DNA of 38,100 nt from an uncultured Candidatus Peribacteria bacterium (lineage in GTDB: Bacteria; Patescibacteriota; Gracilibacteria; UBA4473): positions 1 through 38,100 of the forward strand of contig CAZVBV010000001.1 in NCBI GenBank assembly GCA_964625805.1, written 5' to 3'. Positions 3,316 through 4,796 of this stretch are shown here, piece by piece. The notes under the pieces were generated by a model. It made no database searches, was not told the DNA's origin, and saw only the letters and a program-made list of their open reading frames with translations. Each line of letters begins with the position of its first letter. Within the stretch, counting starts at the first letter, position 1. The translations under genes and the position numbers were made by a program.

Positions 3316-4796
<1,481 letters not shown>

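What the first reader, a model, noticed from the sequence alone, without database searches (positions are those of the whole stretch)
4783..4796. 16S 3' tail has CCGCC instead of the CCUCC anti-Shine-Dalgarno core, and no inspected gene has an SD
The 16S ends GGATCACCGCCTCA, where bacteria normally have GGAUCACCUCCUUA. The anti-SD core at 4789..4793 is therefore CCGCC. I inspected the 20-25 nt upstream of about 25 start codons: ychF, fusA, lexA, recA, sod, thyA-like, secY, rpoC, rpsL, rpsG, metG, xth, the ABC gene, glmU-like and others. None has GGAGG, GAGG or the cognate GGCGG at -5 to -12. Upstream regions are A/T/C-rich (for example CAACAAAAAAATG, CTCAAAAAAAATG). The only GAGG-like stretch precedes the DUF559 ORF and comes from its flanking repeat. 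Together this suggests SD-independent initiation as the default in this organism.
Basis: partly seen in the sequence, partly recalled or inferred. Interest (0 to 1): 0.6.

Follow-up and report, generated by a model that had tools for sequence, protein, structure and literature searches.

The report
Altered 16S tail, no Shine-Dalgarno use
This small-genome (CPR) bacterium really has CCGCC where ribosomes normally carry the mRNA-docking CCUCC, and it does not use docking sites. This kind of loss is already published for related lineages; the new detail is a small RNA hairpin just after the gene that changed in step with the mutation.

Summary
The only 16S gene (3316-4796) ends GGAUCACCGCCUCA, so the anti-SD core is CCGCC (U1537G, E. 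coli numbering).

It is not an assembly error:
- Two other genomes of the genus have the same last 37 nt.
- 26 of 29 16S genes of the family have G at that position; 0 of 107 from the rest of the class do.
- G4791 pairs with C4805 in a hairpin (4790-4795 / 4801-4806) whose 3' arm covaries with the tail across the class.

Neither canonical nor cognate SD motifs are enriched upstream of about 740 predicted genes; they are depleted. The same pipeline finds SD in E. coli.

SD non-use is older than the mutation. Class relatives with intact CCUCC do not use SD either. Other known users of this tail are also missing: no Era, no SD on rpsU, no prfB frameshift. I read CCGCC as drift under relaxed selection, limited only by the pre-16S hairpin.

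Promoter geometry suggests initiation on leaderless mRNAs (about 66 genes) and on leaders of about 13-21 nt that are A/U-rich and G-poor (about 72 genes).

Loss of both anti-SD and SD is published for Peribacteria, SR1 and Parcubacteria, so this is a new member of a known kind.

The parts
3316..4796 (+). 16S rRNA gene, the only copy in the assembly
   Evidence: Rfam RF00177, 1447 bits, model 1-1533/1533. Single hit of the helix-45 anchor in the genome.
4783..4796 (+). Single-stranded 3' tail GGAUCACCGCCUCA (E. coli 1529-1542 equivalent)
   Evidence: Read directly. Identical last 37 nt in same-genus genomes G001 and G002.
4789..4793 (+). Altered anti-SD core CCGCC. G4791 corresponds to U1537 of E. 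coli.
   Evidence: G at this position in 26 of 29 family 16S genes and 0 of 107 from the rest of the class.
4790..4806 (+). Tail-trailer hairpin: CGCCUC (4790-4795), loop AUCCA, GAGGCG (4801-4806). G4791 pairs with C4805.
   Evidence: MFE -10.9 kcal/mol. The core is paired in 29/29 family and 65/107 other class sequences. The 3' arm covaries with the tail.
4816..4831 (+). Second trailer hairpin UCUCAC-UUCG-GUGAGA. It is preceded by a conserved (A)GGUAU (4810-4815) and followed by AGAAGC (4833-4838).
   Evidence: Family relatives have a hairpin of different sequence at the same place.
4889..4899 (+). Trailer strand of the pre-16S leader-trailer helix (CAUGCGUUCGA)
   Evidence: Exact complement of leader 3196-3206. 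The same motif is in the trailer of relative L004/L017.
3196..3206 (+). Leader strand of the pre-16S leader-trailer helix (UCGAACGCAUG)
3122..3156 (+). Likely rrs promoter: TTGACA, 16 nt, TACTAT, then the GC-rich discriminator CCGCCAG
   Evidence: Read directly. Consensus match only; not tested.

Best explanation
The G is a real, inherited substitution (U1537G in E. coli numbering) in the 16S tail of a family of genetic-code-11 bacteria. The family belongs to the GTDB class Gracilibacteria (CPR/Patescibacteria).

Shown:
- The organism, its family and the class relatives I sampled do not use SD-anti-SD pairing to choose start codons.
- Other known functions that keep GAUCACCUCC constant elsewhere are missing. 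There is no Era GTPase. The rpsU gene has no SD. The prfB gene has no frameshift site.
- The tail core pairs with the first bases of the 16S trailer in a short hairpin. The hairpin lies inside the precursor, between the mature 3' end and the leader-trailer stem.
- The trailer arm changed together with the tail: U-A became G-C.

Inferred:
- With SD pairing and Era binding gone, the tail sequence was free to drift. Only changes that kept the precursor hairpin were tolerated.
- The hairpin acts in 3' end maturation or as a mask on immature subunits.
- Start sites are chosen without rRNA pairing, on two kinds of mRNA. One kind is leaderless: the -10 box ends 6-9 nt before the AUG. The other has a leader of about 13-21 nt, G-poor and U/A-rich, beginning about AAUUUUUAA. 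A is favoured at -3 and local structure is weak. A four-domain S1-like protein may help.
For: The substitution is real:
- Identical 37-nt end in G001 and G002.
- Family cores are UCGCC 13, CCGCC 12, CUGCC 1, CCUCC 3. The rest of the class has 0 of 107 with a central G.

The hairpin covaries:
- Partner of the central core base: U-A 63, G-C 25, C-G 2, A-U 1.
- Chimera MFEs: G tail with G trailer -7.1; G tail with U trailer -3.6; U tail with G trailer -4.6; U tail with U trailer -5.9.
- Without any folding, GCC tails have GGC downstream in 26/26, against 3% of UCC tails.
- The tail's own complement is present in 100 of 134 sequences, against 54.1 +/- 4.5 when tails are permuted (maximum 72 in 5000).
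- The hairpin is ancestral. Other Patescibacteria classes mostly read CACCUCCUUUCUA(A/G)GGAG.
- It lies within the precursor: the leader-trailer helix is 3196-3206 / 4889-4899.

No SD use:
- for G000. G falls to 8-11% at -14..-7.
- for G018, G061 (keeps CCUCC) and G038 (canonical tail). G052 shows only a slight excess of SD-like 4-mers.
- E. coli control.

Constraints are missing:
- The best Era-model hits are Der (TIGR03594, 417 bits), and the KH part of the Era model is never matched. Most CPR lost era (PMC10582724).
- Family rpsU genes have TTGACA-N16/17-TAnnAT followed by about 8 nt and then ATG, with no complement to the tail.
- prfB reads in one frame from model position 2.
- In F. johnsoniae the ASD is needed for rpsU translation and 16S maturation (PMC13000453).

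Start-site context:
- Full promoter matches pile up 6-9 nt (66 genes, 64 with ATG) and 20-28 nt (72 genes) before starts. Background is 1-2 per position.
- TTG sits at 16-18 nt spacing in 53 of 147 -10 hits, against 5 in the control.
- Folding energy is weakest around starts.
Against: - The mature 3' end, the transcription starts and the existence of the hairpin in vivo are all unmeasured.
- Gene starts come from my own simple caller. It reproduced only 27 of 42 annotated E. coli starts.
- Relatives were sampled at 200 kb each.
- Absence of Era rests on HMM searches of MAGs.
- Three family members (G061-G063) have CCUCC, so either a reversal or several independent U-to-G changes are needed.
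- About 40% of class sequences outside the family lack the hairpin, so it is dispensable in some lineages.
- The S1-like protein scores below the curated bS1 cut-offs.
Confidence: 0.85

Rival explanations
1. Assembly or sequencing error: the true base at 4791 is T and the tail is canonical.
For: Single rrs copy in a 122-contig metagenome assembly. Reads could not be inspected.
Against: Two other assemblies of the genus have the same end. 26 of 29 family 16S genes have G. The pairing partner is C (4805), not A, and all 26 G-type tails are followed by GGC.
Confidence: 0.01
2. Re-specified pairing: the ribosome uses CCGCC to recognise a matching GGCGG-type SD, as in engineered orthogonal ribosomes.
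For: A G-C-rich core would pair strongly. A few genes have some complementarity by chance (11% at -6 kcal/mol or stronger).
Against: Cognate 4-mers occur in 4.3% of SD zones against 9-12% in controls, and cognate 5-mers in 1.0% against 2-3%. Duplex energies equal those of shuffled sequence. G is depleted at -14..-7. Family members with different tails show no matching motif before rpsU.
Confidence: 0.03
3. The hairpin is kept in the mature 16S rRNA. The 3' end would lie beyond 4806, so the former anti-SD is permanently locked in a cis helix. That would be an RNA-only counterpart of the protein sequestration seen in Bacteroidia.
For: The helix is conserved by covariation in 29 of 29 family members. 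YbeY was not looked for, and Era, its partner in 3' end maturation, is absent.
Against: The same hairpin occurs in most other Patescibacteria that keep a canonical tail. From general knowledge, bacterial 16S 3' ends are trimmed to a few nucleotides after CCUCC. The Rfam model ends at 4796. There is no RNA evidence either way.
Confidence: 0.1
4. The hairpin covariation is hitch-hiking or a copying by-product (a template-switch type mutation that copies one arm onto the other), without function.
For: Short inverted repeats can arise and be homogenised by template switching. Two class families lack the hairpin.
Against: The helix is kept through at least five different arm sequences: GCCUC/GAGGC, GCCUU/AAGGC, GCCAU/AUGGC, UUCC/GGAA and CUCU/AGAG. 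Loop lengths vary across many families and across other classes of the phylum. That is the pattern of long-term selection.
Confidence: 0.08

Closest known systems
[quoted passage not shown] 2018, PMC6107228). Includes Ca. Peribacter riflensis, SR1/Absconditabacteria, Campbellbacteria, Wolfebacteria, many Flavobacteriia, Mycoplasma and insect endosymbionts.
   Same: Full-length 16S with helix 45, a non-CCUCC core, a lineage-wide variant, and no SD or complementary motif before genes. Peribacter (tail GAACACUUCCUUA) matches my family f8 of the same GTDB class.
   Different: The variant here is CCGCC/UCGCC (U1537G). I did not find it in the held supplements of that paper (one file was cut when stored). 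It was in only 4 of 185,579 species genomes under a strict context. It belongs to a different family from Peribacter.
Anti-SD-poor subgroup of Parcubacteria and the reduced CPR ribosome (Tsurumaki et al. 2022, PMC9297842)
   Same: CPR lineage with loss of the CCUCCU motif and ribosome simplification.
   Different: That paper reports the loss for a Parcubacteria subgroup and gives no finding on the anti-SD of the Peregrinibacteria/Gracilibacteria clade. It reports bS21 as often absent in that clade. Here a divergent bS21 gene is present.
Bacteroidia: SD-blind ribosomes with a conserved ASD sequestered by bS21/bS18/bS6 and used for rpsU autoregulation and 16S maturation (PMC7797042, PMC13000453)
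   Same: Genome-wide lack of SD, G-poor and A-rich upstream regions with A at -3, and weak structure at starts.
   Different: The ASD is not conserved here. rpsU has no SD and looks leaderless. Era is absent. The two functions shown to hold the ASD in F. johnsoniae therefore do not apply.
Leaderless mRNA initiation (Actinobacteria, Deinococcus, archaea); prediction from a -10-like signal about 10 nt before the start is recalled from Nakagawa 2010 and Zheng 2011, not re-read here
   Same: A TAnnnT box ends 6-9 nt before an AUG and is preceded by TTG at 16-18 nt, for 66 genes.
   Different: It accounts for only about 9% of genes by the strict pattern. An equally large class has short leaders of discrete length. 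No TSS data exist.

Membership tests
SD-scarce organisms lacking conserved CCUCC (PMC10783764 category iv; Amin 2018) | 16S with recognisable helix 45 whose 13-nt tail lacks CCUCC | tested here: met
   Tail GGAUCACCGCCUCA after an intact helix 45.
SD-scarce organisms lacking conserved CCUCC (PMC10783764 category iv; Amin 2018) | The variant is shared by close relatives or other rrs copies, so it is not a sequencing error | tested here: met
   Same genus identical over 37 nt. 26 of 29 family genes have G. Compensatory C4805.
SD-scarce organisms lacking conserved CCUCC (PMC10783764 category iv; Amin 2018) | No stable tail-mRNA hybridisation or SD motif enriched at -20..-2 | tested here: met
   6.0% against 11-14.5% for 4-mers. 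Duplex dG equals that of shuffled sequence. E. coli control 47%.
Altered-specificity SD/anti-SD pair | Upstream motif complementary to the variant tail, enriched at SD distance | tested here: not met
   Cognate 4-mers 4.3% against 9-12%; cognate 5-mers 1.0% against 2-3%.
Bacteroidia-type sequestered ASD | CCUCC conserved although SD is not used | tested here: not met
   The core is variable across the family and class.
Bacteroidia-type sequestered ASD | rpsU carries a strong SD (autoregulation through bS21-free ribosomes) | tested here: not met
   17 family rpsU upstream regions were read. A promoter directly abuts the ATG in most, and none has a complement to the tail.
Bacteroidia-type sequestered ASD | The tail is bound in a pocket of bS21/bS18/bS6 | not testable with these tools
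   Needs a ribosome structure. A divergent bS21 gene exists.
Leaderless mRNA initiation | Promoter -10 element placed so that transcription starts at the start codon | tested here: met
   66 genes have TTGnnn-N16-18-TAnnnT ending 6-9 nt before the start, 64 of them with ATG. Background is 1-2 per position.
Leaderless mRNA initiation | Mapped 5' ends coincide with the AUG | not testable with these tools
Pre-16S leader-trailer processing precursor | Complementary leader and trailer strands flank the 16S gene | tested here: met
   3196-3206 and 4889-4899 are exact complements.

The most novel reading that the evidence does not exclude
The hairpin between the 16S tail and the first trailer bases is a functional element in its own right, present across Patescibacteria. 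It may act as a mask or processing signal on immature subunits. In this family it may even be retained in the mature rRNA as a permanent cis lock on the former anti-SD. This family would then be the natural compensatory-mutation experiment that proves selection on the helix independent of mRNA pairing. Together with it, the lineage would use a 5'-end-dependent way of finding starts, on leaderless mRNAs and on leaders of fixed short length that begin AAUUUUUAA.
Probability: 0.3. Interest if true: 0.6.

Novelty: new member of a known kind. Interest (0 to 1): 0.4.

Why it matters
The 16S tail is among the most conserved sequences in bacteria, and it is the basis of start-site prediction in most gene callers. 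This lineage adds a clean case in which every known user of the tail (SD pairing, Era, the rpsU SD, the prfB frameshift) is missing and the sequence has drifted. That supports the view that those functions are what hold CCUCC in place elsewhere.

The practical lesson is for annotation. SD-based start models should not be applied to this class, and promoter-to-start geometry may serve better.

The covarying tail-trailer hairpin points to a testable role of the anti-SD region in 16S maturation that does not depend on mRNA binding.

Tried and rejected
- RNAalifold on 43 tails: MAFFT left the alignment ungapped, so loops of different length put the 3' arms out of register and no helix was found. 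I replaced it with per-sequence folding, chimera controls and a folding-free k-mer permutation test.
- The Pfam S21 model missed the G000 gene. tblastn with the same-genus protein found it, so 'bS21 absent' was rejected.
- 'Era present' appeared in the tally, but only because two GTPase domains of Der add up. One search identifies the protein as Der.
- I first took the family to be that of Ca. Peribacter. The published Peribacter tail (GAACACUUCCUUA) matches a different family, f8.
- I looked for an rpsU SD that covaries with the tail, as in Bacteroidia. There is none.
- Literature searches for a described anti-SD/trailer hairpin found nothing. The library is limited, so this is not proof of novelty.

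Full report
**What is there**

Window 4783-4796 reads GGATCACCGCCTCA. It is the 3' end of a full-length bacterial 16S rRNA gene, 3316-4796 on the + strand (Rfam RF00177, 1447 bits, model positions 1-1533 of 1533). The universal tail is GAUCACCUCCUUA (E. coli 1530-1542), so this gene has U1537G in the centre of the anti-SD core and U1541C.

The window is contig 1 of a 957-kb assembly with 122 contigs, 42% G+C and 96.9% estimated completeness. The assembly holds no second rrs copy. TGA is a true stop here: the in-frame coding score drops after TGA just as it does after TAA and TAG.

A same-family genome is deposited as 'Candidatus Gracilibacteria bacterium'. The organism is therefore a member of the GTDB class Gracilibacteria (CPR/Patescibacteria) that uses genetic code 11.

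**Is the G real?**

Three independent lines make an error very unlikely.

1. Two other assemblies of the same genus match the last 37 nt exactly.
2. Among 29 family 16S ends, the core is UCGCC in 13, CCGCC in 12, CUGCC in 1 and CCUCC in 3. Among 107 ends from the rest of the class, none has G at the centre.
3. The base has a compensating partner, described in the next section.

In a scan of one genome for each of 185,579 species, a non-U at this position in a strict helix-45 context occurred 4 times. Two of those were relatives of this organism.

**A covarying hairpin**

Directly after the tail lies GAGGCG (4801-4806), the exact complement of CGCCUC (4790-4795), with a 5-nt loop. G4791 pairs with C4805, and the hairpin MFE is -10.9 kcal/mol.

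Relatives have the same arrangement with other sequences:
- GCCUU/AAGGC, GCCAU/AUGGC and UGCCAU/AGUGGC.
- CCUCCUC/GAGGA in the three family members that keep CCUCC.
- In other families of the class, CUUCC/GGGAA, CCCCU/AGGG and CUCU/AGAG.

The core is paired in 29 of 29 family sequences and 65 of 107 other class sequences. The partner of the central base is A for U (63), C for G (25), G for C (2) and U for A (1).

Chimeras show that tail and trailer fit each other. A G-type tail with a G-type trailer folds at -7.1 kcal/mol, and with a U-type trailer at -3.6. The reverse combinations give -4.6 and -5.9. Shuffling the trailer raises the mean MFE from -4.7 to -2.5.

A test that uses no folding gives the same answer. 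All 26 GCC tails are followed by GGC within 4-19 nt, against 3% of UCC tails. UCC tails are followed by GGA in 75%, against 8% of GCC tails. The tail's own complement is present in 100 of 134 distinct sequences, against 54.1 +/- 4.5 when tails are permuted (maximum 72 in 5000).

In a sample of other Patescibacteria classes, most ends read CACCUCCUUUCUA(A/G)GGAG. The hairpin is therefore ancestral; what is special to this class is the variability of the core.

The hairpin lies inside the precursor. A leader strand (3196-3206) and a trailer strand (4889-4899) are exact complements. A consensus promoter with a GC-rich discriminator sits at 3122-3156.

**No SD, with either motif**

I called genes with a hexamer coding model and chose starts without any ribosome-binding-site term.

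- Upstream of about 740 genes, G falls to 8-11% at -14..-7. A rises at -12/-11 and at -3.
- GGAG/GAGG/AGGA occur at -20..-3 in 6.0% of genes, against 11-14.5% in three control zones.
- The cognate set (GGCG/GCGG/AGGC/GAGG) occurs in 4.3%, against 9-12%.
- Duplex energies of -22..-2 against the organism's own tail or the canonical tail equal those of shuffled copies. For the own tail, the fraction at -6 kcal/mol or stronger is 11.1% against 9.9%. Along the sequence, binding is weakest, not strongest, around -8..0.
- On 50 kb of E. coli K-12 the same pipeline gives 47% against 8-13%, with G at 45-47% at -11/-10. This held even though only 27 of 42 annotated starts were reproduced exactly.

**SD loss is older than the mutation**

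I ran the same analysis on 200 kb from each of four relatives:
- G018: same family, CCGCC tail.
- G061: same family, keeps CCUCC.
- G038: another family of the class, fully canonical tail.
- G052: another family, tail CUCUCU.

The first three show no SD use. G052 shows only a slight excess (14.8% against 6.5%).

**Why the tail could drift**

Known functions that hold GAUCACCUCC constant elsewhere are absent here.

- Era. Its KH domain binds nt 1530-1539 (PMC10582724). The only hits to the Era model are the two GTPase domains of Der (TIGR03594, 417 bits), and the KH part is never matched in 43 family genomes. The review states that most CPR have lost era. This fits the decay of GAUCA itself in the family (GGAAUAC, GGAUUAU).
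- rpsU. In F. johnsoniae the ASD is needed to translate rpsU, which carries a strong SD, and for 16S maturation (PMC13000453). Here a divergent bS21 gene exists. It is at contig 9, 12416-12213, and was found by tblastn after the Pfam model missed it. Its upstream region reads TTGACA-N16-TACAAT-TCCGCCCG-ATG. Most family homologues look the same, and none has a complement to the tail.
- prfB. It reads in a single frame from model position 2 in the family, so the SD-stimulated +1 frameshift site is absent.

**How starts may be chosen (inferred)**

Full promoter matches (TTGnnn-N16-18-TAnnnT) are not spread evenly before genes. They pile up with the -10 box ending 6-9 nt before the start (66 genes, 64 with ATG) and 20-28 nt before it (72 genes). 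Background is 1-2 per position, and there are none in the E. coli sample.

TTG at 16-18 nt spacing accompanies 53 of 147 TAnnnT hits at -14..-12, against 5 at control spacings.

The first class fits leaderless mRNAs. The second fits leaders of about 13-21 nt that begin, 7 nt after the -10 box, with about AAUUUUUAA. This motif explains the enriched TAAT/TTAA/TTTAA words at -16..-10.

Predicted structure is weakest across the start: -2.7 kcal/mol for -20..+20, against about -5 further away. A 352-aa protein with four S1 domains is present in all family genomes but scores below the curated bS1 cut-offs.

The short-leader class is also seen in G038, G061 and G052. The leaderless class is strongest in this genome.

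**What is known**

Organisms that lack both CCUCC and SD are well documented (PMC6107228). A 2024 survey lists Ca. Peribacter riflensis, SR1, Campbellbacteria and Wolfebacteria in that category (PMC10783764).

The published Peribacter tail, GAACACUUCCUUA, matches my family f8 of the same class, not the window's family. Tsurumaki et al. (PMC9297842) report the loss of the motif for part of Parcubacteria.

I found no CCGCC tail in the supplements held for the 2024 paper, though one file was cut when stored. I also found no paper describing the tail-trailer hairpin or its covariation. The library is limited. From memory, AAGGAG directly after the 16S gene is familiar from spacers of actinobacteria and firmicutes.

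**Verdict**

The phenomenon is a new member of a known kind. The additions from this work are:
- The order of events: SD use was lost first and the core drifted later.
- The absence of the other known users of the tail.
- The compensatory change in the precursor hairpin.
- The two-class promoter geometry.

Noticed in passing
whole genome G000; for example window 11416-11475 (fusA) and 3000-3049 (secY, minus strand): Consensus promoters (TTGnnn-N16-18-TAnnnT) sit at two discrete distances from start codons. One class is 6-9 nt (66 genes) and the other 20-28 nt (72 genes). The second class has transcripts predicted to begin AAUUUUUAA. Background is 1-2 per position.
   Followed up: partly
window 4810-4838: After the tail hairpin come a conserved (A)GGUAU, a second hairpin with a UUCG tetraloop (4816-4831) and a conserved AGAAGC. 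Family relatives have a hairpin of different sequence at the same place.
   Followed up: partly
window 3316-5200: The 16S gene stands alone. There is no tRNA, 23S or 5S anywhere in the 38-kb window, so the rRNA genes are unlinked.
   Followed up: no
G000 contig 9, 12213-12486 (minus strand); family loci L088-L107: The bS21 gene is too divergent for Pfam PF01165 (no hit in G000) and barely seen by TIGR00030 (15.9 bits). It is conserved in the family (MIKVT.R.GES...KRF), with a near-consensus promoter and a GC-rich discriminator abutting the ATG. Reports that bS21 is absent from this clade may partly reflect model sensitivity.
   Followed up: partly
class-wide 16S ends: Several families of the class have no tail-trailer hairpin and tails that do not match CCUCC at all. 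One has GGGGAUAGACCACCAUUCUAA-type ends, resembling the published SR1 tail. Others have GGACUAUCUCCUUAU-type ends. Tail evolution in this class is much faster than in the other Patescibacteria classes sampled.
   Followed up: partly
L001 (JAFZFY010000287.1) and L003 (Nostoc sp. 106C): There were two unrelated hits in the global scan for a non-U core. A buffalo-rectum 'Proteobacteria' MAG has CACCGCCUUU and a GAGGCG about 15 nt downstream. A Nostoc contig has CACCACCUU.
   Followed up: no
family genomes, prfB: RF2 is encoded in one uninterrupted frame in the family genomes with a full-length match, so there is no programmed +1 frameshift. This fits the lack of a working anti-SD.
   Followed up: partly
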